DNA of 46,080 nt from Candidatus Moranbacteria bacterium RIFCSPHIGHO2_02_FULL_40_12b. Its GTDB lineage: Bacteria > Patescibacteriota > Minisyncoccia > Moranbacterales > 2-12-FULL-40-10. Of the stretch, positions 8,276 through 46,080 are shown in pieces. The first letter of the stretch is position 1. Every line of letters starts with the position of its first letter. Below the pieces are notes generated by a model. The model had not been told where the DNA came from. It searched no databases and saw only the letters and a program-made list of their open reading frames with translations. The stretch is from contig MFRX01000009.1 in NCBI GenBank assembly GCA_001784725.1, positions 22,335 through 68,414 on the forward strand, written 5' to 3'. The position numbers and the translations under genes were made by a program.

Positions 8276-8737
8276 ATGGGAAGTAAGAAAATAATGACTC
8301 TTTGCATAATTCATCAGGGAAATAAAATTCTTTTAGGAATGAAGAAAAGGGGTTTTGGAAAAGGACGGTATAATGGATTCGGCGGGAAAGTTCATGACGG
8401 CGAAAGTGTGGAAGAGGCGGCTAAAAGGGAACTAATTGAAGAAGCCGGAATCAGATGTAAAGAGCTGGATTTAATCGGCGTGCTTGAATTTTCGTGGACA
8501 AATAAACCGGAAATTTTGGAAGTGCATATTTTTAAAGCCGAAAAAATTGAGGGCGAACCGACTGAAAGCGAAGAAATGAAACCGGAATGGTTCCATATTG
8601 ATGAAATACCCTTCCATTCCATGTGGTCGGACGATCCCCACTGGTTTCCGCTTTTTTTGGAAAACAAAAAATTCAAAGGTAATTTTGTTTTTGACGATTC
8701 TGATAAGATGGTTCAATATAATTTAGAAGAAATTTAA
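8276..8737 (+). CDS. Nudix hydrolase (MutT/MTH1-like)
   Basis: 153 aa with the Nudix box GGKVHDGESVEEAAKRELIEEAGI. Confidence 0.85.
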   Translation: MGSKKIMTLCIIHQGNKILLGMKKRGFGKGRYNGFGGKVHDGESVEEAAKRELIEEAGIRCKELDLIGVLEFSWTNKPEILEVHIFKAEKIEGEPTESEEMKPEWFHIDEIPFHSMWSDDPHWFPLFLENKKFKGNFVFDDSDKMVQYNLEEI

Positions 8738-8800: not shown

Positions 8801-8857
8801 GCATTATTCATAATTCTTAATTCCAGCAATATGGTTTCTTTTGAAAAATCCGTCGGG
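8801..8857 (+). repeat. Left direct repeat of the island (attL-like)
   Basis: 57 nt repeated at 12809..12879. The right copy carries an extra 14 nt. The 41-nt exact core is TTAATTCCAGCAATATGGTTTCTTTTGAAAAATCCGTCGGG (8817..8857 = 12839..12879). Confidence 0.9.
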
Positions 8858-8881
8858 ATTGTGGTGTTTTGGTTAATATAA
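8831..8881 (+). pseudogene. Duplicated 5' fragment of the Nudix gene at 12853 (16 codons, then stop)
   Basis: The first nine codons (ATG GTT TCT TTT GAA AAA TCC GTC GGG) are identical to those of the intact gene at 12853. The sequence then diverges and reaches TAA at 8879..8881. Confidence 0.7.
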
Positions 8882-8921: not shown

Positions 8922-8950
8922 TTGACTTTTTTGTTTTTGCGTGCTAGTTT
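8922..8950 (+). promoter_or_regulatory. Putative sigma70-type promoter of the island's first gene
   Basis: TTGACT, a 17-nt spacer, then TAGTTT. The spacer and -35 closely resemble the promoter at 30546..30574. Confidence 0.45.
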
Positions 8951-9021
8951 GTCAGGTTCCTTATATTTTTAAATTGGAAAGTTCTTTGATTTTATGCGCG
9001 AGGAGGAGGTGAAAATATTTC

Positions 9022-9058
9022 GTGCGGTATTCTAAGGGGCGGGAGTTTCACTTCTGCC
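9022..9058 (+). repeat. Hairpin module U0 (GTGCGGT word plus GGGGCGGGAG/CTTCTGCC hairpin)
   Basis: 8-bp stem 9038..9045 / 9051..9058, including two G-T (G-U) pairs that are only valid on the + strand. Followed by CTGCCA. Lies about 35 nt upstream of the 9094 start. Confidence 0.6.
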
Positions 9059-9093
9059 ACGGAAAATAATCTTGAATTTTTTAGGAGGTAAAA

Positions 9094-9735
9094 ATGGCAC
9101 CAAAAACAGCAACGCTTCCGGAAACGGAAACATCTGAACAGATGAAAATCAATACATATAAGGTAACCTGCAGGGGAATTTCCCCGATTCTCATGAATCC
9201 AGCGACAGAGGAACTGCTCAATCAGCTTGACGGCGGAGCAGGAGCGCGTACTCCAAAAGATATGGTTTCAACTCCGGAGCAGAAAGCTGAGAGGAAAATA
9301 ATCCGGGATGAAAACGGGAATGTCGGCGTGCCGTCCAGTTATTTATTCAGTTGCTTGCGCGAAGCGGGCCGGCGCGTTCCATATGACGCCAAGACGAAGA
9401 TTTCCACTAAAGAAAGCACAATTCTTCCGGGACTGATGTCAATCGTGGAAATTTTCATTCCTTTTATTGATCAAGATGCGAAATGGGAAGTGGACCGGAG
9501 AAGAGGCATGCTTCCCAAAGATGGAACCGCGGTTTGTATCACCCGCCCGCGTTTTAACGAGTGGGCATTTGCAGTGACAATAGAAGTGGATGAAGGACAG
9601 GTTTCGCCTGGAAAAATAAAGGAACTTTTCAAGGTAGCGGGAAGAATGGTCGGCCTTGGGGACTTCCGTCCATCATGCAATGGACAGTTTGGAAGGTTCC
9701 GGGTAGAAAACTGGGAGAAGATAAAAGAAACTTAG
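9094..9735 (+). CDS. RAMP-like protein (Cas5/Cas6/Cas7-type motifs); function unknown
   Basis: 213 aa with the strong RBS taGGAGGtaaaaATG. Motif GVPSSYLFSCLREAGR (aa 78-93) resembles the RAMP P-x-S-S-h-K-G-x-h-R motif. The C-terminal glycine-rich loop is VGLGDFRPSCNGQFGRFRV (aa 186-204). Confidence 0.45.
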   Translation: MAPKTATLPETETSEQMKINTYKVTCRGISPILMNPATEELLNQLDGGAGARTPKDMVSTPEQKAERKIIRDENGNVGVPSSYLFSCLREAGRRVPYDAKTKISTKESTILPGLMSIVEIFIPFIDQDAKWEVDRRRGMLPKDGTAVCITRPRFNEWAFAVTIEVDEGQVSPGKIKELFKVAGRMVGLGDFRPSCNGQFGRFRVENWEKIKET

Positions 9736-9753
9736 TAAAATACCTTTCGTTCT

Positions 9754-9829
9754 GTGCGGTTAAGTTTCGTACTGCCTTCCCCAGCAGGGTTCGGTGGAGT
9801 TCGGAGCAGGGACTCAATGAGTCCCTGCT
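9754..9829 (+). repeat. Hairpin module U1
   Basis: GTGCGGT (9754..9760), AGCAGGGTTCGG (9783..9794), and an 11-bp perfect stem agcagggactc / gagtccctgct (9805..9815 / 9819..9829). Confidence 0.65.
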
Positions 9830-9886
9830 GAAATTACTAATGTACTTAAGAGTTGCAATAAAAACTGTTCTCTACTGTTTAGTTCA

Positions 9887-9940
9887 GTGCGGTAGGGCGC
9901 AGCAGGGTGCGGGGCAGGACAGAAGAATTTCTGTCCTGCC
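9887..9940 (+). repeat. Hairpin module U2
   Basis: GTGCGGT (9887..9893), AGCAGGGTGCGG (9901..9912), and a 12-bp perfect stem ggcaggacagaa / ttctgtcctgcc (9913..9924 / 9929..9940), followed by CTGCCATC. Confidence 0.7.
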
Positions 9941-10030
9941 ATCTCTTTCAGAGATTTTAATAAAATTGAAATTTCTAGAAGGGAGAATTTTTTTCCAATG
10001 AGTTCTTTATAATTTTAAAAGGAGATTGAA

Positions 10031-10240
10031 ATGAGGAAGAAAAACAGAGATAGAAAAGAGAAAGAGATTGTAATAAGAGTATCAGGAGTAGAAAGTTTTG
10101 TTCAAGGCAGCAGTAATAATTTGATTATAGATGTTGAAATGAATAAAGAGAATATCTGGATGGCAAAAGTTGAGTCGGAAATTACTCTAAAAGAAATATT
10201 ATACAGAATATGGCCGAACATCGCGCGCATTGTAAAGTAA
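10031..10240 (+). CDS. Small hypothetical protein (69 aa) inside the island
   Basis: Good RBS aaAAGGAGattgaaATG. Occupies the only AT-rich gap between GC-rich hairpin blocks. No recognisable motif. Confidence 0.5.
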   Translation: MRKKNRDRKEKEIVIRVSGVESFVQGSSNNLIIDVEMNKENIWMAKVESEITLKEILYRIWPNIARIVK

Positions 10241-10241
10241 C

Positions 10242-10343
10242 GTGCGGTGGTGTGTGGCTCGGTCCAGCTAGGAGTTAGTAGCGCAGTGAGCGGTCCGGTC
10301 CGCCAGAGCTTGGGGCAGAGTCACTGATAATTCAAACTCTGCC
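10242..10343 (+). repeat. Hairpin module U3
   Basis: GTGCGGT (10242..10248), then about 65 nt of GC-rich sequence, then stem ggcagagt / actctgcc (10314..10321 / 10336..10343), followed by CTGCCAAATTTT. Confidence 0.6.
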
Positions 10344-10429
10344 AAATTTTCTAAAAATTTTAAACCATTGAAATTTTTGAAAAGTTCTTTGAATCATAGA
10401 CAAGGCAGTGTTTAGTCTTGTCCGGTTGC

Positions 10430-10487
10430 GCGCGGTTCTCGACGGCGCAGTAAAGTTTGGAGCAGGGGATTTATTTGGATTTCCTGC
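10430..10487 (+). repeat. Hairpin module U4
   Basis: GCGCGGT (10430..10436). Stem 10462..10471 / 10478..10487 with G-U pairs valid only on the + strand. Followed by CTGCCAG. Confidence 0.55.
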
Positions 10488-10508
10488 CAGAACGCTTAAC
10501 GCAGATTT

Positions 10509-10586
10509 AGCAGGGTACGGCGGAGCAGCGCGCGGTGTAGTTGGGTTGTGTCGCGCATGGGGCAGGAATTAATTCTAATTCCTGCC
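10509..10586 (+). repeat. Hairpin module U5
   Basis: AGCAGGGTACGG (10509..10520), GCGCGGT (10530..10536), and stem ggcaggaatt(a) / (t)aattcctgcc (10561..10586), followed by CTGCCATCC. Confidence 0.7.
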
Positions 10587-10681
10587 ATCCCTTTCCGAGA
10601 ATTTCATTATTTGGAATTTTCAGAAAGGGAATAAAAAGTGTCTTTGGCACTTTCCCATTTGTCCTTTAAAAAGGAGAAAAA

Positions 10682-12466
10682 ATGAAACATCAGAAATATC
10701 TCGATCTTCTGGAATTTTTTCCGGTTGATCAATATCCAAAGCCATTGAAAAATCAAGTGCTGGCTTTGGAAGCAGCAGAAAAAAATGCATCAACGCTTTT
10801 AGAATTGCCGACTGGTTCAGGTAAAACTGCAATCGGCTACACTTTCTTGAAGGCGTTGAAAAGTTCGAGTAAGTCGCCACTTTTCTACATTGTTCCAAAT
10901 AAGACATTAGTTAATCAAGTGCGTGAACTTCATCCCGATGTTAAGGTTGTTTATGGACGTAATGAATATCTCTGTCCTTATTACAGAGACGGCAATGTGA
11001 CAGCCGATGAATCGCCATGTTCAATGTTGGATTGTCCGCATCGGGTAGATCAGGAAACAGGAGAAACCGAAGCTGGAGGAGTTGAGCCGTGTCCCTATCT
11101 TCAGGCCAAATATGAAGCCAAAAGAGGAGACATAATTGCCTGCACTATGTCTTTTTATCTTTTCACCCATCTTTTTTCCAAAGAATGGGATGAGACGGCC
11201 GGACTAGTGATTGATGAAGTGCATCGGTTGGCAAATGTTTTCCGCAATTCTTTGAGTTATGAGATTACGGATTATTATTTAGACAGGATAATCGAGCTCC
11301 TTTCGGAAATTTCTCCAAACGAAGCCAAGATCATATCAGAATTCAGGCGTAAGATGATGAAAATTATCAAGCGCCGTCCACCCAGAACCGCAACGCTTTT
11401 AAAAGCAGGCGAGGTTGCCGAGCTCTTGAGAGAACTTTACAAAATCGATTCGAAAAAAATGCGGAAAGCCGTCAAGGAAGCGGTTAAGCGAGGTGGCATT
11501 GATGTGGTTGCTCAGCGTGAGGTGCTGAAAAAAACCGAAATGATCACTCGCAACCTGATCCGTTATCTCAAGTCATTGGAATTTTCCTTGCCGACGGCCA
11601 AAAGAAATCCTCTCAACTATACTTACGCTTTTTATGAGAAGGATTCGGATGGAAATGGAAAATCGCAGTATCGCTTGGTAATCAGGGCATATTATGTGGC
11701 TCCACTTATCCAAAAAATATTGCCTGAAAAAACACTGGCTTATTCGGCAACAATCGGCGATCCCCAAATCATCAAATATGAAACCGGGATAGATTTTTCT
11801 TTCTATTCTTTTCCGTCTAACTTTCCGTCAAGAAATACTAAAATTTTTCTATCGACTGACATGCCTAATCTTGCGATGAAGGCCAGAAGAAAGCAGGATC
11901 TTACGCGTTCTTTGCGCAAGGTCGCAAAAGCGGCAAAAATCTTTGCTGATTCCGGCATACGGTCGCTCGTTGTGGTTGTTTCCGAGATGGAAAGGCAGAA
12001 GTTTATGATGTTGGCGAAAGAAGAAGGCGTTGAGGCGATAAGTTATGGCAACGGCGTAAAACCCAGAGTCGCCGCTGAAAAATTCAAGAGTGGTGGGAGC
12101 GATGTTCTCGTGGGCACGGTGTCCAACTATGGCGAGGGTGTGGATCTTCCTAAGAAGATTGCGCAAGTGACATTTTTTCTGCGGCCGGGATATCCCAATC
12201 CGCATGATCCGCTCACGATTTTTGAAGAACGAAGATATGGAAGCGTGCGCTGGAAAATTTGGAACTGGCGGGTGATGATAGAAGCGCTTCAGGTGCGCGG
12301 ACGCAATGTGCGGAGCGCCAAGGATACCGGTGTGACTATCTTCATTTCCCAGCAGTTCGGACGGTTCCTTTATGCCAGTCTTCCGGAGTGGCTCAAGGAA
12401 TCATTTGAGGGCAAATTGACTTGGGATGAATGTATTACTGATGCAAAGACATTGCTGGCAAAATAA
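10682..12466 (+). CDS. XPD/Rad3/DinG-family superfamily-2 helicase with Fe-S cluster domain
   Basis: 594 aa with RBS aaAAGGAGaaaaaATG. Walker A is LELPTGSGKT and the DEAH-type box is VIDEVHRL. Four Cys lie between them (LCPYY, SPCSMLDCPH, EPCPY), as in the XPD 4Fe-4S domain. Also has SATIG, YGEGVDLP and QVRGRNVRS (motifs III, V, VI). Confidence 0.85.
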   Translation: MKHQKYLDLLEFFPVDQYPKPLKNQVLALEAAEKNASTLLELPTGSGKTAIGYTFLKALKSSSKSPLFYIVPNKTLVNQVRELHPDVKVVYGRNEYLCPYYRDGNVTADESPCSMLDCPHRVDQETGETEAGGVEPCPYLQAKYEAKRGDIIACTMSFYLFTHLFSKEWDETAGLVIDEVHRLANVFRNSLSYEITDYYLDRIIELLSEISPNEAKIISEFRRKMMKIIKRRPPRTATLLKAGEVAELLRELYKIDSKKMRKAVKEAVKRGGIDVVAQREVLKKTEMITRNLIRYLKSLEFSLPTAKRNPLNYTYAFYEKDSDGNGKSQYRLVIRAYYVAPLIQKILPEKTLAYSATIGDPQIIKYETGIDFSFYSFPSNFPSRNTKIFLSTDMPNLAMKARRKQDLTRSLRKVAKAAKIFADSGIRSLVVVVSEMERQKFMMLAKEEGVEAISYGNGVKPRVAAEKFKSGGSDVLVGTVSNYGEGVDLPKKIAQVTFFLRPGYPNPHDPLTIFEERRYGSVRWKIWNWRVMIEALQVRGRNVRSAKDTGVTIFISQQFGRFLYASLPEWLKESFEGKLTWDECITDAKTLLAK

Positions 12467-12530
12467 ATACTTGCCAATGTAGTGCCCGTTTATGTAGAGT
12501 ATTGTTACGTATGGCTTAAGTATTGCGCGG

Positions 12531-12556
12531 GACGGGAATTCATTTGAATTCCCGTC
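12531..12556 (+). repeat. Hairpin module U6
   Basis: 11-bp perfect stem gacgggaattc / gaattcccgtc, preceded by GGG and followed by GAAATTTTT. Confidence 0.65.
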
Positions 12557-12626
12557 GAAATTTTTCAGCACAGCTTATGATGTTTTGAATGCTAATGTTT
12601 TGCTGAGTCACGTTCAGTTCAGTATG

Positions 12627-12653
12627 GGACGAGAATTCAAATGAGTTCCAGCC
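12627..12653 (+). repeat. Hairpin module U7 (degenerate copy of U6)
   Basis: gggacgagaattcaaatgagttccagcc aligns to U6 but has several stem mismatches. Confidence 0.4.
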
Positions 12654-12737
12654 ATAAAAATTTTACTGTGCCAGGTCATGTTCGGTATAGTTGGCTCCGG
12701 TGGAGAAGGGCATGGCAGTCAATGGTCTTCAACATGG

Positions 12738-12772
12738 GGCAGTGATTTCAATAAATCTCTGCCATTTTTTTT
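12738..12772 (+). terminator. Hairpin module U8, acting as an intrinsic terminator at the island's right end
   Basis: Stem ggcagtgattt / aaatctctgcc (one T-T mismatch), followed by A and then T8 (12765..12772). Confidence 0.7.
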
Positions 12773-12808: not shown

Positions 12809-12879
12809 GCATTATTTTTGATTCTTAATTCACAATTTTTAATTCCAGCAATATGGTTTCTTTTGAAAAATCCGTCGGG
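12809..12879 (+). repeat. Right direct repeat of the island (attR-like)
   Basis: Matches 8801..8857. Contains the start codon and first 9 codons of the intact Nudix gene. Confidence 0.9.
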
Positions 12880-13317
12880 GCGGTTTTGTTCCGGCGGGTA
12901 AACAGCAAAAATAAATATCTTCTGCTTCATTATAAGTCCGGCCATTGGGATTTTCCCAAAGGGCATCAGGAAAAAGGCGAGAATGACGAAGTAACGCTCC
13001 GAAGGGAAGTAAAAGAAGAAACCGGAATCCAGGACATCAAAATAATTCCGGGATTCAGCAAAAAAATCGGATATTTTTATGTTGCCAAAGGAAAAGAAAG
13101 AAAAAAACGGCTGAAGGTTCAAAGAGGAATAAAAATTAAAAAACAAGTTATCTACTATTTAGCCGAAACGCGGGAAAAAGAAGTGAAAATTTCTTTTGAA
13201 CATGTCGGCTTTCGGTGGCTGGACTATTCCCAGGCGCTCAAGAAAATTACTTTCAAAAATTCAAAAAATGTGCTCATTTTGGCTAATAATTATTTTGCTA
13301 AAATACCGGGGTCTTGA
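12853..13317 (+). CDS. Nudix hydrolase (Ap4A-hydrolase-like)
   Basis: 154 aa with the Nudix box GHQEKGENDEVTLRREVKEETGI, preceded by HWDFPKG. Confidence 0.85.
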   Translation: MVSFEKSVGAVLFRRVNSKNKYLLLHYKSGHWDFPKGHQEKGENDEVTLRREVKEETGIQDIKIIPGFSKKIGYFYVAKGKERKKRLKVQRGIKIKKQVIYYLAETREKEVKISFEHVGFRWLDYSQALKKITFKNSKNVLILANNYFAKIPGS

Positions 13318-16509: not shown

Positions 16510-17112
16510 CTACTCGCTGGCCTTTGCTATTGTAATTTTGTTTCTGCCTCCACGCTTGGAAGCGTAGAGGGCGTTATCTGCTTTTTTAAAAACTTCTTCC
16601 ATGGTCAACTTGGAAGTCGAATCATATTCCATAATTCCGGCGCTGATCGTCACCTGAATGTTAGCGGGATTGGACTTTTCCACTTCGGCTCTAATACTCT
16701 CCGCGACTCTTATCGCTCCCTCGGTATCAGTATGGGGAAGTAGAATAATAAATTCTTCTCCGCCAAATCTTCCCGCTTTATCTGTTTCTCTGACTCTTTC
16801 CTTTATGATTTTTCCGATTTCTGCCAGTACCACATCGCCAACAGGATGTCCGTAGGTGTCGTTGATGTTCTTGAAATGGTCAATGTCAAACGTTATTACG
16901 GTTAATTTCACTCCATCTCTGCCGGCCCTTTTGTATTCCTGGCGGAATAAGTCCATTATACCTTTTCTGCTATAAAGTTTTGTTAATGGATCCGTTATTA
17001 CAGCAATTTTTAAAGTTTCGTTTTCAACGTTTAATTCTGTAATTTTTGTCTGTAATTCCTCAACTACCTTCTTTAAATATTCGTTTTCTGTTATTAATTC
17101 TTTGGTATTCAT
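16510..17112 (-). CDS. Diguanylate cyclase (GGDEF domain) with N-terminal coiled coil
   Basis: 200 aa with DPLTKLYSRKG, FDIDHFKNINDTYGH and the active site RFGGEEF. A hairpin at 16494..16523 overlaps its stop codon. Confidence 0.9.
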   Translation of the reverse strand: MNTKELITENEYLKKVVEELQTKITELNVENETLKIAVITDPLTKLYSRKGIMDLFRQEYKRAGRDGVKLTVITFDIDHFKNINDTYGHPVGDVVLAEIGKIIKERVRETDKAGRFGGEEFIILLPHTDTEGAIRVAESIRAEVEKSNPANIQVTISAGIMEYDSTSKLTMEEVFKKADNALYASKRGGRNKITIAKASE

Positions 17113-27329: not shown

Positions 27330-28422
27330 ATGAAAGAACTCCAAGAAAAATTAGATATTTTAAAAGCTAAAATCCCGCAATTGCGGGACTGGCTTTGATG
27401 TTGCCGGTAAAAAGCGGACTATTGCGGACTTGGAACGGACTACCGCGGAGAAAGAGTTTTGGAGCGACAATCAGAAAGCAAGCGAAACAATGAAAGAGTT
27501 GGAATTATTGCGAATAGAAGTCGGGGAAATTGAAAATACTGAAAAAAGAATTGAAGAAATTTCGGGCCTCGCGGAAATCGCGGAAAACGAAAAAGACGCG
27601 GCGGAAATTGAAAAGGAAATCGGGAAAATCGGGGAGATGATGGACAAACTGGAATTCAAAACGCTTTTTAACGGCCCTTATGACAAAAACGACGCCATCC
27701 TTTCTATCCATAGTGGCGCTGGAGGCGTGGACGCGCAGGACTGGGCGGAAATGCTGCTGCGGATGTATCTGCGCTGGGCGGAAAAAAATAATTTCAAAGT
27801 CCGCCTCATTGACGAATCGCGCGGGGGAGAAGCGGGAATAAAAAGCGCGACTTTCGAAGTGGAAGGGCCGTACGGGTACGGACATCTTCAGTCAGAAGCC
27901 GGAGTGCATCGCCTGGTCCGGCTTTCGCCGTTCAACGCGGATAATCTCCGCCAGACATCTTTCGCGTTGGTCGAAGTCCTTCCGATAATATCCGAAATGG
28001 AAGAAGTGAAAATAAAACCGGATGATCTCCGGATTGATACTTTCCGCTCGGGGGGAGCTGGCGGCCAAAGCGTCAATAAAACCGAAAGCGCCGTCCGCAT
28101 AACTCATATACCGACCGGCCTGGTGGCGGCTTGCCAGAATGAAAGGTCGCAAGCGCAAAATAAGGAACAGGCGATGAAGGTTTTGAAAGCCAAACTGCAT
28201 CAGAAATTTCTGGAGGAAAAGGAAAAGGAAAAAATGAAACTGCGCGGTGAATACAAGAGCGCCGAGTGGGGAAATCAGATCCGGTCTTATGTTTTACATC
28301 CGTATAAAATGGTAAAAGACCACCGGACGAAATATGAAACTTCAGACGCGGAAAAGGTGCTGGACGGGGAAATAAGCGAATTTATTGAGGAATATTTGAA
28401 GTTTGCGGCAGGAAAGAAATAA
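27330..28422 (+). CDS. prfB: Peptide chain release factor 2, requires a programmed +1 frameshift at 27393..27399
   Basis: Frame 0 reads MKELQEKLDILKAKIPQLRDWL, then CTT TGA T. Shifting +1 gives DVAGKKRTIADLERTTAEKEFW and joins the 330-aa ORF, which carries the SPF and GGQ motifs. Confidence 0.93.
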
Positions 28423-42900: not shown

Positions 42901-45900
42901 ATGAAAATTAAAGAATCCGGAGTTTTTCGAAACTCCAAGGCGAAAATATTAATCGCGCTGTTTTTGGTTGTCGGCGCTTTTTTTATTTTCTGGGCGATTA
43001 ATAAATCGCAAGCCGGAAATATTTCCGGAATCGCAGTTTCCGTTTCCAGCGCCACTCCAGACGCGACAGGCGTGGTTTATACAATTGCGCTTACTCCCGC
43101 TTCTGCTATTCCCGCGGACGGCTCAATTCATGTCCAGTTTCGCTATCGGGAAGGACACGTTACTTTAATTAGCGGCAACCCTTCAAAAGAAGCCGGCACC
43201 TACGGATCAATTAATAATTTGCTTTGGGTAAGCAATAATGAATTTTACGCGACGGTTACCGACGAAGTTGCCGGCGGCACCGCGCTGACGATAAAAGCGG
43301 GCGGACTGCAAAATCCGTTTCAGGCGGGAGAATATTCCGCGGTTGTATGGACAGCCAATAATTCCGGCGCTGCCATTGATGGGTCCCAGCTTTCAAATTC
43401 AACCAGCCGGGATTATTACACGATTGGAACTCCAGTTGTGATCGGAAGAGTGACTGATCCCAGCGTTGCCGCGGTTTCCGGAGCGTGGGTCAACGCGCAC
43501 ACGACCGGAAATAATCCGCAATGGGGTGGGGGCAGTACGGACGAACTTGGTTATTATTCTATTGGAAACATAGGAGGCAGTACGCCGGCCAACGGCACGG
43601 ATCTGAAAATTAACGCGTTTGCTCCCAATCAAAACGCTGAACTGGGGCAGACCGATGAAGAACAAATTACCTTTAACGGTTCGACTATTACAAAAAATAT
43701 CCAATTTACCGCTTCTACTAAGACCATTACCGGCCGGGTAGTGGATGATGATGGCGCAGCGATAAACGGAGCGCGCGTCAATCTTTGGAAAGTGGACGGG
43801 ATGGGATGGTCGCAGACCACGACTGATTCCAGCGGGGATTATGAGGTTTTGGTAAAAGGCGGCCGCTGGGATGTTATGCCGCAGGCGGATAACGATGATG
43901 ACTGGGCTTATGGCCAGCCGCCAACCAGTGTGATTTTTGCCGGTGACGATTCAGTGGAATCACAGACGGTTAATTTTACGGTTATGAACGCCAGTTCCAC
44001 CCTCACGGGGTCAATTCGCCTGCCAAACGGCTCGGTTCCTGATAATCCGCAGAATTTTTGGGTGAATGCGCACGCGATGATGATGGGCGCGGGCACGCAA
44101 CTGGGAAATGACGGGAACTTTACTCTTAATCTGCCAGCCGGAACCTATATGGTTGAAATTTTTGACCAGGGCCAGAATTACGCGGTTCCGGAAATGGCGC
44201 CAGTGACGATAAATGAAAACGAAACGAAAAATGTCGGAACCATAACGCTCATTAACCGCGACGCGACCATTCAAGGAAGGGCCACGGACCAGAATGGAAA
44301 TCCAGTGGCTAATCAGCGGCTGAACGCTTTTATGATGATGAAAGGCGGCGGTGGCGGTGGAGGCGGCTGGGCGGAAGATACCACGGACGCGAACGGAGAT
44401 TTTTCCATGAAGGTTTTCCCCGGGCGCTGGATAGTGCATGTTCCCAACTGGGGAAATGATGGCGATACCAGCCAGTATGTTTTGGACGGCAACCCCACGG
44501 AAGTCAAAGTGAGTTCCGGACAAACCGCCACCGTTAATATAAGCTTGGTTGAAACCAGCGCTACGATTTCCGGAAATATCGTTGATCCTGATGGCAATCC
44601 GATTTCGGAAATGTATGGCTGGGTATTCGCCGATCAGGCGGGTGATGATGCGTTTTTTGGGCCGGGCTTGGGGGACGCCGTGAGTTTCGGCCAGTTTTCT
44701 TTCGATGTTCCGCCCGGCACTTATGAAATAGGACTGGGTCCGATGCCCGGTTCGGGGTATTCAGCGGGAGATATTACTGAAGTCACCGTGGCCGATGGGG
44801 AAACGGCCACCCAAAATATTACAGTGTATCCCAGCGACATGACAATCATCGGAACTATCCGGGACGAAAACGGCAACGCGGTTACTGGCGTCTTTATGGA
44901 TATTTTCGCCACTAATGACAATGGCGGCTGGCAGAACGCGATGATTAACCAGTCAAACGGAACCTATGAAATGGCCGTGGCATCCGCGGTTGATCCGTGG
45001 AGCATCGGTTATTTCGTGGATCCCAGCTCCGGATATTTCTCTGAAAAATTGACTGATAGCTCCATTTCCGGAAATTCGGGAGATACGATAACTAAAAATA
45101 TAACCGTCCGGACTGCCAACGCGACAATTTCAGGGCAGGTTACCGACAATAGCGGATCTCCGATGAGTGATGTATTCGTGTTCGCGGATAACCGCACGGC
45201 AGGGTATGACCGCCAGGGAGCGGAATTTATGGGACCGATGTTCATGGGTGACAATATGACGGACGCCAATGGAAATTTCTCCGTTAATGTTCCGGCCGGC
45301 ACTTATAATGTCGGCGCGTCGCTTCCCCGCGATATCCGGTCAGAGCTCATTAATCCGGAACGGGTTCAGGTGACGGTGGCGGCTAATGGAACCGCGACTG
45401 CCAATCTAGCTTTCAAAAGCGCGGATATTGAAGTGGCCGGAACAGTCAACTTGGACGGAAGCCCGCAGGAAGACGCCTATGTCTGGGCCTGGTCGGAAGA
45501 AGGCGGATATACTGAAGCGCAGGCCGATGACAGCGGAAATTACATTTTAAACGTAACCGCGGATGACAATTGGCACATCGGGACTAATAGCGACGTGGTG
45601 GATTCCACGAATTACGTGAGATCGGAAGAATATATAATCGACACCAGCACGGCGGATAGTTTTAACCAGGATATTAATTTGGAAACAGTGGTTGGTGGCT
45701 TAGCTGATCCCGTCACAACATCTTTTGATCCGGCTAATGCCAAAGTGTCTAACTTAAGCGACGGGAGCCAGATAACTATTCCGGCTAACGCGATGGGAGA
45801 CGCGGACACCGTGACGCTCAATGCTTCCACCACTTCCGAACTTCCCCGCACTACCAATGCCAAACCGATCGGCACCGGGCTGGAGCTGACGGCGATGGAA

Positions 45901-46080
45901 GAAGACGGAACTTCCATAACCTCGTTCGATTCCGACGTGAGCATCACTCTGCCTTACGATGAAACGGTTCTTGATGATTTGAGAATTACCGAAGACGATC
46001 TGGTGGCGGCGTATTGGGATGAAACCAATGGCGTATGGCAGCCGCTGGACAACTACACGATTGACAAAGAAAATAATTTA
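42901..46080 (+). CDS. Large secreted or surface protein with repeated carboxypeptidase-regulatory-like (CarboxypepD_reg/Cna-B-type) beta-sandwich modules; 3' end outside the window
   Basis: Open frame of 1060 codons from ATG 42901 to the window edge (hand-translated; absent from the ORF track because no stop is reached). Signal anchor ILIALFLVVGAFFIFWA. At least 8 repeats of the pattern (I/V)xGx(V/I)xDxxGxP(V/I)xxxxV, for example ITGRVVDDDGAAINGARVNLW and ISGQVTDNSGSPMSDVFVFA. Confidence 0.8.
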   Translation, partial: MKIKESGVFRNSKAKILIALFLVVGAFFIFWAINKSQAGNISGIAVSVSSATPDATGVVYTIALTPASAIPADGSIHVQFRYREGHVTLISGNPSKEAGTYGSINNLLWVSNNEFYATVTDEVAGGTALTIKAGGLQNPFQAGEYSAVVWTANNSGAAIDGSQLSNSTSRDYYTIGTPVVIGRVTDPSVAAVSGAWVNAHTTGNNPQWGGGSTDELGYYSIGNIGGSTPANGTDLKINAFAPNQNAELGQTDEEQITFNGSTITKNIQFTASTKTITGRVVDDDGAAINGARVNLWKVDGMGWSQTTTDSSGDYEVLVKGGRWDVMPQADNDDDWAYGQPPTSVIFAGDDSVESQTVNFTVMNASSTLTGSIRLPNGSVPDNPQNFWVNAHAMMMGAGTQLGNDGNFTLNLPAGTYMVEIFDQGQNYAVPEMAPVTINENETKNVGTITLINRDATIQGRATDQNGNPVANQRLNAFMMMKGGGGGGGGWAEDTTDANGDFSMKVFPGRWIVHVPNWGNDGDTSQYVLDGNPTEVKVSSGQTATVNISLVETSATISGNIVDPDGNPISEMYGWVFADQAGDDAFFGPGLGDAVSFGQFSFDVPPGTYEIGLGPMPGSGYSAGDITEVTVADGETATQNITVYPSDMTIIGTIRDENGNAVTGVFMDIFATNDNGGWQNAMINQSNGTYEMAVASAVDPWSIGYFVDPSSGYFSEKLTDSSISGNSGDTITKNITVRTANATISGQVTDNSGSPMSDVFVFADNRTAGYDRQGAEFMGPMFMGDNMTDANGNFSVNVPAGTYNVGASLPRDIRSELINPERVQVTVAANGTATANLAFKSADIEVAGTVNLDGSPQEDAYVWAWSEEGGYTEAQADDSGNYILNVTADDNWHIGTNSDVVDSTNYVRSEEYIIDTSTADSFNQDINLETVVGGLADPVTTSFDPANAKVSNLSDGSQITIPANAMGDADTVTLNASTTSELPRTTNAKPIGTGLELTAMEEDGTSITSFDSDVSITLPYDETVLDDLRITEDDLVAAYWDETNGVWQPLDNYTIDKENNL

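What the first reader, a model, noticed from the sequence alone, without database searches (positions are those of the whole stretch)
8922..12772. Candidate undescribed RNA-associated module: RAMP-like protein, XPD/DinG helicase, small ORF and nine structured hairpin units
The cargo of the island is unusually coherent.
- One putative promoter lies at 8922..8950.
- Three co-oriented ORFs each have a strong GGAGG-type RBS.
- About 1.1 kb of non-coding sequence is far more GC-rich than other intergenic DNA in this window. By hand count, 10501..10560 is about 63% G+C, whereas other spacers are almost pure A/T.
- That non-coding sequence is organised into hairpin units of a single family.

The only well-known pairing of RAMP proteins with a DinG-family helicase is type IV-A CRISPR-Cas (Csf2/Csf3/Csf5 plus Csf4/DinG). 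Here there is no regular repeat-spacer array, no Csf1-like large subunit and no adaptation genes. The hairpins also differ in their inner stems.

Working hypotheses:
1. A radically minimised type IV-like or CRISPR-derived effector that uses fixed structured RNAs rather than an array.
2. A new defence or plasmid-interference module in which the RAMP protein binds or processes the hairpin RNAs and recruits the helicase.
3. A mobile-element maintenance system.

All three are inferences. Only the gene and RNA architecture is directly observed.
Basis: inference. Interest (0 to 1): 0.85.

Follow-up and report, generated by a model that had tools for sequence, protein, structure and literature searches.

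The report
Helicase-linked VIPR RNA-guided system
This 4-kb island in a Candidatus Moranbacteria genome is a VIPR system, a very recently described CRISPR relative: a small RAMP protein, nine guide RNAs built from 5-nucleotide repeats that end in a hairpin, and an XPD/DinG-type helicase. It is a real and coherent module, but it belongs to a kind first reported in 2026 preprints rather than to an undescribed one.

Summary
The island carries three co-oriented ORFs with Shine-Dalgarno sites, about 1.1 kb of unusually GC-rich non-coding DNA, and nine hairpin units of one family.

The interpretation needs updating.
- **213-aa protein.** It is a homologue of the Vipr protein of phage SUSP1 (PDB 36pp, profile E 1.3e-16). 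It has a Cas7/Csm3-like RAMP fold and keeps the thumb Arg and the G-loop Asp-aromatic-Arg.
- **Hairpins.** They are only the conserved 3' handles of vrRNAs. Upstream of each lies a tract of 3-14 in-frame pentamers with consensus YNN(G)G, which is the VIPR guide code.
- **594-aa protein.** It is an XPD/DinG-family helicase with four invariant FeS cysteines. It is closer in fold to DinG and XPD than to CasDinG.
- **Conservation.** Vipr, vrRNA arrays and this helicase co-occur in 17 of 17 sufficiently long Patescibacteria loci. The helicase is essentially absent from 80 viral Vipr loci.
- **69-aa ORF.** It is an orphan and not part of the system.

I found no natural targets. By elimination from the paper's text, this is probably the helicase-associated VIPR type (type IV). 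That type has been catalogued but not characterised.

The parts
8806..8868 (+). Left copy of a 63-nt direct repeat that bounds the island. It duplicates the promoter region and first 9 codons of the NUDIX gene at 12853.
   Evidence: D1, 89% identical, spacing 4022; sequence
9018..9060 (+). U0: mini vrRNA-like unit upstream of vipr. It has 3-4 pentamers (TTTCG TGCGG TATTC TAAGG) and then the hairpin GGCGGGAGT-TTC-ACTTCTGCC.
   Evidence: covariance-model hit 9031-9064, E 0.0034
9094..9735 (+). vipr: 213-aa single-RRM RAMP protein. The thumb beta-hairpin spans about residues 131-154 and carries invariant R151-P152. The G-loop is G187-L-G-D190-F191-R192-P...G-x-F-G200.
   Evidence: PDB 36pp 'SUSP1 Vipr protein' E 1.3e-16; phrog_4652 E 6.9e-18; invariant residues; AF2 model; Foldseek hits to Csm3/Cas7
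9745..9829 (+). U1 vrRNA candidate: 12 in-frame pentamers and then an 11-bp hairpin at 9805-9829.
9863..9940 (+). U2 vrRNA candidate: 5 clear pentamers (up to 10 counting weaker ones) and then a 12-bp hairpin at 9913-9940.
9942..9984 (.). AT-rich 19-bp inverted repeat immediately after the U2 tail. Similar elements lie at 10345-10386 and 10588-10630. Function unknown; possibly a terminator or an operator.
   Evidence: repeat family D3; homologous motifs in L081, L082 and L094
10031..10240 (+). 69-aa ORF with an AGGAG ribosome-binding site. It is an orphan and probably not a component of the system.
   Evidence: only itself among 1.84 billion representative proteins; absent from all related loci; no family hit
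10243..10342 (+). U3 vrRNA candidate: 14 pentamers with one 1-nt insertion, then an 8-bp stem with a 13-nt loop. The tail differs at a single position from that of a unit in locus L081, while the pentamer tract is divergent.
10401..10488 (+). U4 vrRNA candidate: 12 in-frame pentamers and then an 11-bp hairpin.
10506..10587 (+). U5 vrRNA candidate: 11 in-frame pentamers and then an 11-bp hairpin at 10561-10587.
10682..12466 (+). vap-type accessory gene: 594-aa XPD/DinG-family SF2 helicase. Walker A is at G45-x-G47-K48, the DEAH box at D178-E179-x-H181, and the four invariant Cys are C98, C113, C118 and C137 (FeS cluster).
   Evidence: Pfam Helicase_C_2, DEAD, ResIII and DEAD_2; PADLOC typeIV_DinG E 2.6e-39; PDB XPD 7e-15; invariant columns; AF2 model pLDDT 87.5; Foldseek DinG 3.9e-25, XPD TM 0.70-0.75, CasDinG TM 0.56-0.63
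12480..12556 (+). U6 vrRNA candidate: 11 AT-richer YNNNG pentamers with one 1-nt insertion, then an 11-bp hairpin at 12531-12556.
12578..12655 (+). U7 vrRNA candidate: 10 in-frame YNNNG pentamers. The hairpin is degenerate (3 mismatches), so the unit may be decaying.
12671..12772 (+). U8 vrRNA candidate: 13 pentamers with one 2-nt insertion, a 10-bp hairpin at 12738-12763, and then a T8 run that probably terminates the array. It has the strongest period-5 G signal in the whole 46-kb window.
12828..12890 (+). Right copy of the 63-nt direct repeat. It overlaps the start of the intact NUDIX gene (12853-13317).

Best explanation
The island is a VIPR (Viral Interference Programmable Repeat) system of the helicase-associated kind. 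It sits in the chromosome of a Candidatus Moranbacteria (Patescibacteria/CPR) bacterium.

**Proposed mechanism.**
1. The eight long units and one mini unit are transcribed as vrRNAs of about 60-100 nt. Each is a tract of YNN(G)G pentamers capped by a constant 3' hairpin handle.
2. Vipr protomers polymerise along the tract, one per pentamer. They flip out the conserved G/Y positions with the thumb Arg and the G-loop Asp-aromatic-Arg, and present the variable dinucleotides.
3. The filament binds double-stranded DNA whose sequence matches the gapped code and forms an R-loop or triplex.
4. The co-encoded FeS XPD/DinG-like 5'-3' helicase is then loaded on the displaced strand. It unwinds or clears the target, which interferes with replication or transcription of a phage or other mobile element.

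**What is shown here.** Homology, fold, conserved contact residues, the pentamer code, the covarying handle, and conserved synteny.

**What is shown elsewhere.** Steps 2-3 were demonstrated for type II VIPR of phage SUSP1 in the two preprints.

**What is inferred.** Expression and processing of these particular RNAs, the exact code in this YNNNG-like variant, recruitment of the helicase, and the nature of the targets.
For: **Vipr protein.**
- The family profile matches PDB 36pp 'SUSP1 Vipr protein' at E 1.3e-16 over nearly the full length. It also matches phrog_4652 at E 6.9e-18.
- Residues that 10.64898/2026.04.26.720927 reports as vrRNA contacts are conserved: R138 corresponds to R151 (invariant), D177-W178-R179 to D190-F191-R192, and H17 to N35. 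Alanine substitution of R138 or D177 abolished silencing in that study.
- The AF2 model (pLDDT 85.5) is a single-RRM RAMP. Its top 50 listed Foldseek hits are CRISPR effector structures, mostly type III and type VII Cas7 subunits, at E about 1e-7 and TM about 0.5-0.55.

**Pentamer code.**
- All eight long tracts fall in the top 0.5% of period-5 G power among all 60-nt windows of the 46-kb window. U8 is the window maximum.
- In 87 parsed pentamers, position 1 is Y in 81, position 5 is G in 79, and position 4 is G in 37. Positions 2-3 are unbiased.
- Without any manual parsing, the eight pentamers upstream of 70 tails in relatives give Y1 90%, G5 72% and G4 40%.
- The discovery paper reports 9-16 YNNGG repeats plus a constant tail. 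It also reports NNNGG, YNNNG and NNNNG variants in other types.

**Handle.**
- The hairpin covaries strongly.
- It is conserved between loci while the tract diverges.

**Synteny.**
- Every Patescibacteria locus long enough to show it has Vipr, the helicase (45-84% identity) and same-strand tails around both genes.
- Starting from two helicase homologues instead also leads to a Vipr gene and tails.

**Fit with the literature.** The paper states that types III-V carry nuclease or helicase accessory genes.
Against: - No RNA-level data exist for this locus.
- I found no natural target under the 1-nt-skip rule. Nothing in the window or in the 98 loci held at that point (L001-L098) exceeded shuffled controls. 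Two 18-base core hits in IMG/VR did not extend. Two 20-base patterns gave nothing in JGI metagenomes.
- Position 4 of the pentamer is G in only about 40% of cases, so the strict GGY/NN code of type II may not apply.
- Recruitment of a helicase by a VIPR filament has not been shown for any system.
- The type assignment (IV) rests on elimination from the text, because the figures and supplementary tables were not available.
Confidence: 0.85

Rival explanations
1. It is a radically minimised or degenerate type IV-A CRISPR-Cas system, derived from CRISPR. In this view the RAMP is a Csf2-like Cas7, the helicase is CasDinG, and the hairpin units are decayed repeats.
For: - The best named profile for the helicase is PADLOC 'typeIV_DinG, CAS-IV-A associated', at E 2.6e-39 over the full length.
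- The RAMP fold resembles Cas7.
- The pairing of a RAMP with a DinG-family helicase mirrors type IV-A.
Against: - The 213-aa protein hits no Cas or Csf profile in PADLOC, Pfam or NCBIfam. It does hit Vipr.
- There is no repeat-spacer array, and no Csf1, Csf3 or Csf5.
- Solved CasDinG chains are not detected by sequence even at E 10.
- In fold, CasDinG ranks 18th or lower (TM 0.56-0.63), behind E. coli DinG and XPD (TM 0.70-0.75).
- The four FeS cysteines are invariant here, whereas CasDinG has only a vestigial FeS domain (abstract of PMC10450177).
- The units are spaced about 100-140 nt apart and carry pentamer periodicity, unlike CRISPR repeats.
Confidence: 0.04
2. It is a genuine VIPR locus that acts only by transcriptional silencing, as in SUSP1. 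The helicase would not be an effector recruited to targets. Instead it would help load or recycle the RNP, help open PAM-less duplex DNA, or serve replication or repair of the mobile element that carries the module.
For: - Silencing without any enzyme is the only demonstrated VIPR activity.
- The helicase is far more conserved than Vipr: 50-84% against 37-69% identity. That pattern would fit a housekeeping-like enzymatic role.
- Part of the module lies in integrase-bearing elements.
Against: - Linkage is strict, including a divergent orientation with retained adjacency.
- vrRNA arrays lie on both sides of the helicase, which argues for one functional unit.
- The known precedents in which a helicase sits next to a RAMP complex, Cas3 and CasDinG, are target-recruited effectors. 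This is established knowledge about types I and IV-A, not tested here.
Confidence: 0.09
3. The GC-rich hairpin units are not guide RNAs. They would be repeated terminators, REP-like or att-like DNA elements of a decaying mobile element, and the two proteins would act without them.
For: - Two tails score as intrinsic-terminator-like, and U8 is followed by T8.
- The island is bounded by direct repeats.
- No expression data exist.
Against: - The units always lie on the same strand as vipr.
- The phased pentamer signal with Y1/G5 is conserved in 70 units of other genomes.
- The handle is conserved while the tract is hypervariable.
- The protein partner is homologous to one whose structure shows it reading exactly such repeats.
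Confidence: 0.02

Closest known systems
VIPR type II of Escherichia phage SUSP1 and the Pseudomonas fulva prophage (bioRxiv 10.64898/2026.04.26.720920; structures in 10.64898/2026.04.26.720927; PDB 36pp)
   Same: - The Vipr protein is homologous, a single-RRM RAMP of about 200 aa with the same thumb Arg and G-loop D-aromatic-R.
- Several guide RNAs of about 100 nt lie upstream and downstream of the genes.
- Each RNA is a tandem pentamer tract followed by a constant structured 3' tail.
- There is no CRISPR array and there are no adaptation genes.
- The locus has two genes.
   Different: - The accessory gene here is an FeS XPD/DinG helicase, not a small predicted DNA-binding Vap.
- The repeat consensus is relaxed to YNN(G)G, with position 4 G in only about 40% of pentamers.
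- The tail is a simple 8-12-bp hairpin (GGCAG...CTGCC) rather than a hairpin plus pseudoknot.
- The host is a CPR bacterium and the locus is chromosomal, not a coliphage.
- Vipr identity to viral relatives is only about 30-38%.
Helicase-associated VIPR type (probably 'type IV' of the seven types in 10.64898/2026.04.26.720920)
   Same: The paper says that types III-V encode nucleases or helicases, and that III and V are the only nuclease-bearing types. A Vipr + helicase + vrRNA locus therefore fits the remaining type.
   Different: - I could not verify the assignment, because Fig. 5A, figs S16-S17 and the tables are not held.
- The main text of the first paper gives no mechanism or targets for this type. 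It never mentions DinG or Patescibacteria.
Type IV-A CRISPR-Cas (Csf complex + CasDinG)
   Same: - An RNA-guided RAMP filament is encoded next to a DinG-family 5'-3' SF2 helicase, with no nuclease.
- It is carried on mobile elements.
- It probably interferes without cleaving.
   Different: - There is no CRISPR array and no Csf1, Csf3 or Csf5.
- The RAMP is Vipr, not Csf2.
- The helicase has an intact 4-Cys FeS motif and is structurally nearer to DinG and XPD than to CasDinG.
- The guide code is gapped pentamers, not a contiguous spacer.
Type III and type VII Cas7 subunits (Csm3 and type VII Cas7)
   Same: They are the best structural matches to the Vipr model: RRM core, thumb and G-loop, at E 6e-8 and TM about 0.55.
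   Different: - Sequence identity is only 10-16%.
- They work within multi-subunit effectors, with 6-nt periodicity, contiguous spacers and RNA targets.

Membership tests
VIPR system | A Vipr protein homologous to the characterised Vipr (SUSP1) | tested here: met
   The profile of 29 family members hits PDB 36pp_D 'SUSP1 Vipr protein' at E 1.3e-16, residues 4-189 of 202. It also hits phrog_4652 at E 6.9e-18.
VIPR system | A minimal RAMP fold: single RRM core, thumb and glycine-rich loop, with no second RRM | tested here: met
   The AF2 model has pLDDT 85.5 and pTM 0.80, with a beta-hairpin at 131-154 and a G-loop at 187-200. Foldseek top hits are Csm3 and type VII Cas7.
VIPR system | Conserved residues that read the GGY motif: thumb Arg, G-loop Asp-aromatic-Arg, and a beta-sheet H-bond donor | tested here: met
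   R151, D190 and R192 are invariant. Position 191 is F or Y. N35 replaces H17. The residue roles come from 10.64898/2026.04.26.720927.
VIPR system | vrRNAs: at least 4 tandem pentanucleotide repeats (YNNGG or a related consensus) in the intergenic DNA flanking vipr | tested here: met
   Eight tracts have 5-14 in-frame pentamers, and all are in the top 0.5% of period-5 G power. Y1 is 93%, G5 91% and G4 43%. The same pattern appears in 70 units of relatives. The consensus is the relaxed YNN(G)G or YNNNG form, not strict YNNGG.
VIPR system | A constant structured 3' tail that caps a hypervariable repeat tract | tested here: met
   The hairpin is 91.5-94.6% paired, with 9 of 11 and 11 of 11 pairs compensatory. 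The U3 tail differs at one position from that of an L081 unit, while the tract diverges. No pseudoknot was looked for.
VIPR system | No CRISPR array and no other cas genes; a minimal locus of vipr plus one accessory (vap) gene | tested here: met
   There is no regular repeat-spacer family. The only PADLOC hits are helicase profiles. The two genes are conserved together in 17 of 17 loci.
VIPR system | vrRNAs are expressed and co-purify with Vipr | not testable with these tools
   This needs small-RNA sequencing and a pull-down. No transcript data are available.
VIPR system | Targets obey the NN-x-NN (1-nt skip) rule | tested here: inconclusive
   No match above shuffled controls appeared in the window plus the 98 loci held at that point. 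IMG/VR 18-base cores gave one hit each for U4 and U5, and their flanks did not match; U1 gave none. JGI metagenomes gave no hits for two 20-base patterns. Only exact matching was possible in the large collections.
Type IV-A CRISPR-Cas | A CRISPR repeat-spacer array processed by Csf5/Cas6 | tested here: not met
   No array was found. The units are 97-140 nt apart and have variable stems.
Type IV-A CRISPR-Cas | A Csf1, Csf2 (Cas7), Csf3 (Cas5) effector complex | tested here: not met
   Only one RAMP gene is present, and it matches no Cas profile in PADLOC, Pfam or NCBIfam.
Type IV-A CRISPR-Cas | A CasDinG (Csf4) helicase | tested here: inconclusive
   The PADLOC typeIV_DinG profile PDLC01439 scores E 2.6e-39. 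However, solved CasDinG chains are absent from the sequence search even at E 10. They rank 18th or lower by fold, at TM 0.56-0.63 against 0.70-0.75 for XPD. The FeS cysteines are intact, unlike the vestigial FeS domain of CasDinG (PMC10450177).
XPD/Rad3/DinG family of SF2 5'-3' helicases | Two RecA-like motor domains with Walker A and DEAH, a Helicase_C_2 domain, and a 4-Cys FeS insertion in the first motor domain | tested here: met
   Pfam Helicase_C_2 scores 9e-12, with DEAD, ResIII and DEAD_2 also hit. Invariant residues are G45/G47/K48, D178/E179/H181 and C98/C113/C118/C137. The PDB profile hit to XPD is 7e-15. Foldseek gives DinG 3.9e-25 and XPD TM 0.70-0.75. Polarity and FeS binding were not tested.

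The most novel reading that the evidence does not exclude
The Patescibacteria helicase-VIPR clade may be a mechanistically distinct branch with three features.
1. The Vipr-vrRNA filament recruits an FeS XPD-like helicase to its R-loop or triplex. That would be an independent, possibly pre-CRISPR, version of the 'RAMP filament + helicase' logic of type IV-A and type I CRISPR.
2. The relaxed YNNNG repeat is read with a code different from the published NN/1-nt-skip rule, for example three read positions per pentamer.
3. The 3-4-kb cassette is itself mobile. It would insert at gene 5' ends and leave flanking duplications of about 60 nt without carrying an integrase.
Probability: 0.2. Interest if true: 0.75.

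Novelty: new member of a known kind. Interest (0 to 1): 0.45.

Why it matters
VIPR was reported only in 2026, as an RNA-guided DNA-recognition system that reads a gapped pentamer code and may predate CRISPR. Only the repressor-type (type II) systems have been studied mechanistically.

This locus is a clean, compact example of the uncharacterised helicase-bearing type. It offers:
- nine candidate guides with defined boundaries;
- a simple hairpin handle;
- a relaxed repeat consensus;
- an XPD-like FeS helicase.

The type appears to be widespread in Patescibacteria. At least 480 helicase homologues scored E <= 1e-5, and the 120 best listed are all at least 51% identical.

It gives a concrete system for two questions. 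The first is how an enzyme is coupled to a VIPR filament. The second is whether the parallel with type IV-A CRISPR (RAMP + DinG) reflects common descent or convergence. It also shows that ultra-small CPR genomes, which are often poor in CRISPR, carry this alternative RNA-guided system.

Tried and rejected
**Curated libraries.**
- Rfam found nothing in the island, either at gathering thresholds or in an E <= 1 scan. There are no hammerhead ribozymes of the kind reported between vrRNAs in some other VIPR types.
- Pfam, NCBIfam and PADLOC gave nothing for the 213-aa protein. Only a PDB profile search and PHROGs identified it.

[quoted passage not shown] - IMG/VR 18-base cores for U4, U5 and U1 gave 1, 1 and 0 hits. 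Both hits failed to extend: 1 of 8 and 2 of 6 flanking bases matched, as expected for chance.
- JGI metagenomes with 20-base patterns for U5 and U4 gave 0 and 0.
- Mismatch-tolerant scanning of the large collections was not possible.

**CasDinG identity of the helicase.** I considered and rejected this as a membership claim.

**The 69-aa ORF as a component.** Rejected.

**Empty-site search.** All four places shown, out of 22 contigs that encode the identical downstream NUDIX protein, carry the island. The insertion is therefore not confirmed by comparison.

**Other period-5 peaks.** The peaks at 27824-27938 (+) and 45821-45922 (-) lie inside ORFs and have no tail hairpin. I treat them as false positives.

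**Failed or limited searches.**
- The first genome-contig scan, with the broad alignment, failed for lack of a conserved stretch. A narrower alignment found six loci.
- Supplementary tables of the VIPR paper are not held. I could not confirm the type number or whether this exact locus (A3J63_02530) is in the authors' list.

Full report
**1. What is in the sequence**

The window comes from a Candidatus Moranbacteria (Patescibacteria/CPR) genome. The 213-aa protein is identical to NCBI 'hypothetical protein A3J63_02530'.

A segment of about 4.0 kb lies between a NUDIX gene (8276-8737) and a second NUDIX gene (12853-13317). SecA lies upstream and SecDF downstream. The segment is bounded by a 63-nt direct repeat at 8806-8868 and 12828-12890, 89% identical. 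The repeat duplicates the promoter region and first nine codons of the downstream NUDIX gene.

Inside are three + strand ORFs with Shine-Dalgarno sequences:
- 9094-9735 (213 aa)
- 10031-10240 (69 aa)
- 10682-12466 (594 aa)

There are also 1,122 nt of non-coding DNA.

A covariance model built from the nine hairpins recovers all nine on the + strand. It finds essentially nothing else in 46 kb. The proposed promoter at 8922-8950 is not supported by the consensus scan, which finds no excess of promoter-like sites.

**2. The 213-aa protein is a Vipr**

Pfam, NCBIfam and PADLOC give nothing for this protein. A search of 5.8 billion proteins found 42 homologues, all unannotated.

- **Sequence.** A profile of 29 homologues hits one solved structure strongly: PDB 36pp, 'SUSP1 Vipr protein', at E 1.3e-16 over almost the whole chain. 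PHROG family phrog_4652 matches at 6.9e-18.
- **Literature.** Two 2026 bioRxiv preprints (10.64898/2026.04.26.720920 and 10.64898/2026.04.26.720927) describe VIPR systems. Vipr is a minimal, single-RRM RAMP. It polymerises on vrRNAs made of 9-16 (up to 30) YNNGG pentamers followed by a constant structured tail. It recognises double-stranded DNA through the variable NN dinucleotides with a one-nucleotide skip.
- **Contact residues.** The residues that the structure paper identifies as contacting the GGY motif are conserved here. Thumb R138 corresponds to invariant R151. G-loop D177-W178-R179 corresponds to D190-F191-R192. H17 corresponds to N35.
- **Fold.** The AlphaFold2 model (pLDDT 85.5, pTM 0.80) shows an RRM core, a beta-hairpin thumb and a G-loop. 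Its best PDB fold matches are Cas7 subunits of type III (Csm3) and type VII effectors, at E 6e-8 and TM about 0.55. The Foldseek PDB copy pre-dates the Vipr depositions.

**3. The hairpin units are vrRNAs, and the hairpin is only the handle**

*Pentamer periodicity.*
- Upstream of each hairpin the sequence falls into a single 5-nt register.
- For U1, U2, U4, U5 and U7 the register runs without interruption into the first pentamer of the stem (GGCAG or AGCAG). U3, U6 and U8 need one small indel each.
- The tracts hold 12, 5-10, 14, 12, 11, 11, 10 and 13 pentamers for U1-U8. U0, upstream of vipr, has only 3-4.
- Over 87 parsed pentamers, position 1 is a pyrimidine in 81, position 5 is G in 79, and position 4 is G in 37. 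Positions 2-3 are unbiased.
- As an unbiased test, I computed period-5 Fourier power of the G indicator in all 60-nt windows of the 46-kb sequence. All eight tracts lie above the 99.5th percentile, and U8 (12651-12741) is the global maximum.
- In related genomes I applied a fixed frame, with no manual parsing, to the eight pentamers upstream of 70 tails found by the covariance model. This gives Y1 90%, G5 72% and G4 40%.
- The consensus is therefore YNN(G)G or YNNNG. That is one of the 'related consensus' forms which the discovery paper lists for types other than type II.

*The hairpin handle.*
- In the nine window copies, 91.5% of cells pair and 9 of 11 pairs show double changes. No shuffle out of 500 reaches this, and slid registers give 29-50% pairing.
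- In 69 model-aligned copies the figures are 94.6% paired and 11 of 11 pairs compensatory. That alignment was fitted to the model and includes some palindromic reverse-strand hits.
- The U3 tail differs at a single position from that of a unit in locus L081, while the pentamer tract has diverged beyond recognition. This is the 'variable guide, constant handle' signature.

Rfam has no matching family and no ribozymes are present.

**4. The 594-aa protein**

- **Domains.** Pfam finds Helicase_C_2, DEAD, ResIII and DEAD_2.
- **Best named profile.** PADLOC 'typeIV_DinG (CAS-IV-A associated)' scores E 2.6e-39 over the full length. phrog_2488 'DNA helicase' scores 1.5e-42.
- **Sequence against the PDB.** The closest solved proteins are archaeal and eukaryotic XPD (profile E 7e-15) and E. 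coli DinG (1.7e-7). CasDinG chains do not appear even at E 10.
- **Conserved motifs.** Across 42 homologues, the Walker A motif, the DEAH box and four cysteines (C98, C113, C118, C137) are invariant. This is the FeS-cluster signature of XPD and DinG. CasDinG is described as having only a vestigial FeS domain (PMC10450177 abstract).
- **Fold.** The AF2 model (pLDDT 87.5) matches E. coli DinG best (E 3.9e-25) and XPD with the highest TM (0.70-0.75). CasDinG entries start at rank 18 with TM 0.56-0.63.

I file the protein as an XPD/DinG-family helicase. I do not file it as CasDinG.

**5. Conservation of the module**

- **Starting from Vipr homologues.** Contexts were fetched for eight homologues, and six GTDB representative genomes were added: Saccharibacteria, Portnoybacteria and Paceibacterota. 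Every Patescibacteria locus long enough to show it has a helicase of 45-84% identity next to vipr, separated by 0.3-2 kb of non-coding DNA. That DNA is filled with same-strand tails, and more tails lie upstream of vipr and downstream of the helicase.
- **One variant.** One lineage (L086/L087) has the two genes divergent, inside an integrase-bearing element.
- **Starting from the helicase.** Two helicase homologues chosen without reference to Vipr (P0078 and P0154) also have a Vipr gene and, respectively, about 20 and about 8 tails.
- **Viral Vipr loci.** Among 80 IMG/VR viral loci with more distant Vipr genes (30-38% identity, out of 276 detected), only one shows even a weak helicase hit. Two phage-borne relatives, P0036 and P0041, lack the helicase.
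- **Abundance.** The helicase has at least 480 homologues at E <= 1e-5. The 120 best listed are all at least 51% identical, and those that carry a source name are mostly labelled Patescibacteria.
- **The 69-aa ORF.** It is absent from all related loci. It has no homologue among 1.84 billion representative proteins. It is not part of the system.

**6. Mechanism**

My best explanation is a VIPR system whose accessory enzyme is a helicase. Confidence in the identification is about 0.85.

- **Demonstrated for type II VIPR (SUSP1), not here.** One Vipr protomer binds per pentamer. The conserved bases are flipped out. The NN dinucleotides pair with the target with a 1-nt skip. An R-loop triplex forms, and the result is PAM-less silencing that can block phage.
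- **Inferred here.**
  - The nine units are expressed and bound by Vipr.
  - The hairpin defines the 3' end. Several tails are followed by T-runs and two score as terminator-like.
  - The XPD-like helicase is loaded at the R-loop and acts as the effector, by analogy with Cas3 in type I and CasDinG in type IV-A.
- **Alternative helicase roles.** Helping duplex opening or RNP turnover remains possible.

I could not identify natural targets, so the biological opponent, whether phage or another mobile element, is unknown. With position 4 only 40% G, the published code may not transfer unchanged.

**7. Comparison with what is known, and novelty**

The module meets every sequence-level defining feature of VIPR that I could test. 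It fails the defining features of type IV-A CRISPR: no array, no Csf1/3/5, and a RAMP that is not Csf2.

The discovery paper states that types III-V carry nucleases or helicases, and that III and V are the only nuclease-bearing types. By elimination this is probably type IV. The figures and tables were not available to confirm that.

The main text of the discovery paper never mentions DinG, XPD, Patescibacteria or CPR. The structure paper only notes that helicase accessory genes exist and are uncharacterised.

The architecture it inferred from raw sequence was substantially right. I rate the locus as a new member of a known, very recently described, kind. Interest is moderate. It is a good model for the uncharacterised helicase-coupled VIPR type and for the RAMP + DinG parallel with type IV CRISPR, but it is not a new category.

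Noticed in passing
window 8806-8868 and 12828-12890; L090 6787-6844 and 10026-10083: The Vipr-helicase cassette is bracketed by a direct repeat of about 60 nt. The repeat copies the upstream region or 5' end of the downstream housekeeping gene: NUDIX here, and alanyl-tRNA synthetase in the Paceibacterota locus L090 (58 nt, 90% identical). The repeat sequences differ between genomes, and neither cassette carries an integrase. Five other loci show no flanking repeat of 28 nt or more. This suggests a small mobile cassette with an unknown insertion mechanism.
   Followed up: partly
window 9942-9984, 10345-10386, 10588-10630: AT-rich inverted repeats of 18-19 bp (for example TCTCTTTCAGAGATTTTAAT/ATTGAAATTTCTAGAAGGGA) lie directly after the tails of U2, U3 and U5. 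Similar 'CCATTCTTTCAGAGATTTT...' motifs follow tails in L081, L082 and L094. They could be terminators, processing signals or operator sites.
   Followed up: partly
window 10031-10240: This Lys/Glu-rich 69-aa ORF has a good ribosome-binding site, but it has no homologue among 1.84 billion representative proteins and is absent from all related VIPR loci. It is either a strain-specific gene or not a gene.
   Followed up: yes
L105 3924-5614 (same island in another assembly of the same population): In one metagenome assembly the helicase is called as two ORFs of 464 and 99 aa instead of one of 594 aa. This could be a frameshift variant or an assembly error. It may indicate helicase inactivation in part of the population.
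   Followed up: no
L086/L087 58-7744: In one Patescibacteria lineage, vipr and the helicase are divergently oriented. They sit about 4 kb from a tyrosine integrase, among unannotated genes, and the vrRNA tails lie downstream of the helicase on its strand. The module therefore also travels inside larger integrative elements.
   Followed up: no
window 9023-9029, 9758-9764, 9887-9893, 10242-10248: Four units (U0-U3) begin with the same heptamer, GTGCGGT, whose TGCGG is the first pentamer. Relatives show similar starts, GTGC(G/C)GT. This may mark the vrRNA 5' end or a processing or transcription start.
   Followed up: no
window 27824-27938 (+) and 45821-45922 (-): These are two further strong period-5 G/C signals outside the island. 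Both lie inside ORFs and have no tail hairpin. They are probably coincidental periodicity in coding sequence.
   Followed up: partly
window 16510-17112 (-): A 200-aa GGDEF-domain protein lies downstream of SecDF. In the precomputed annotation of an identical contig it carries a 'faint' Cas10-Cmr2 palm hit. This is most likely just the generic similarity between GGDEF and the Cas10 palm domain, not a CRISPR component.
   Followed up: no
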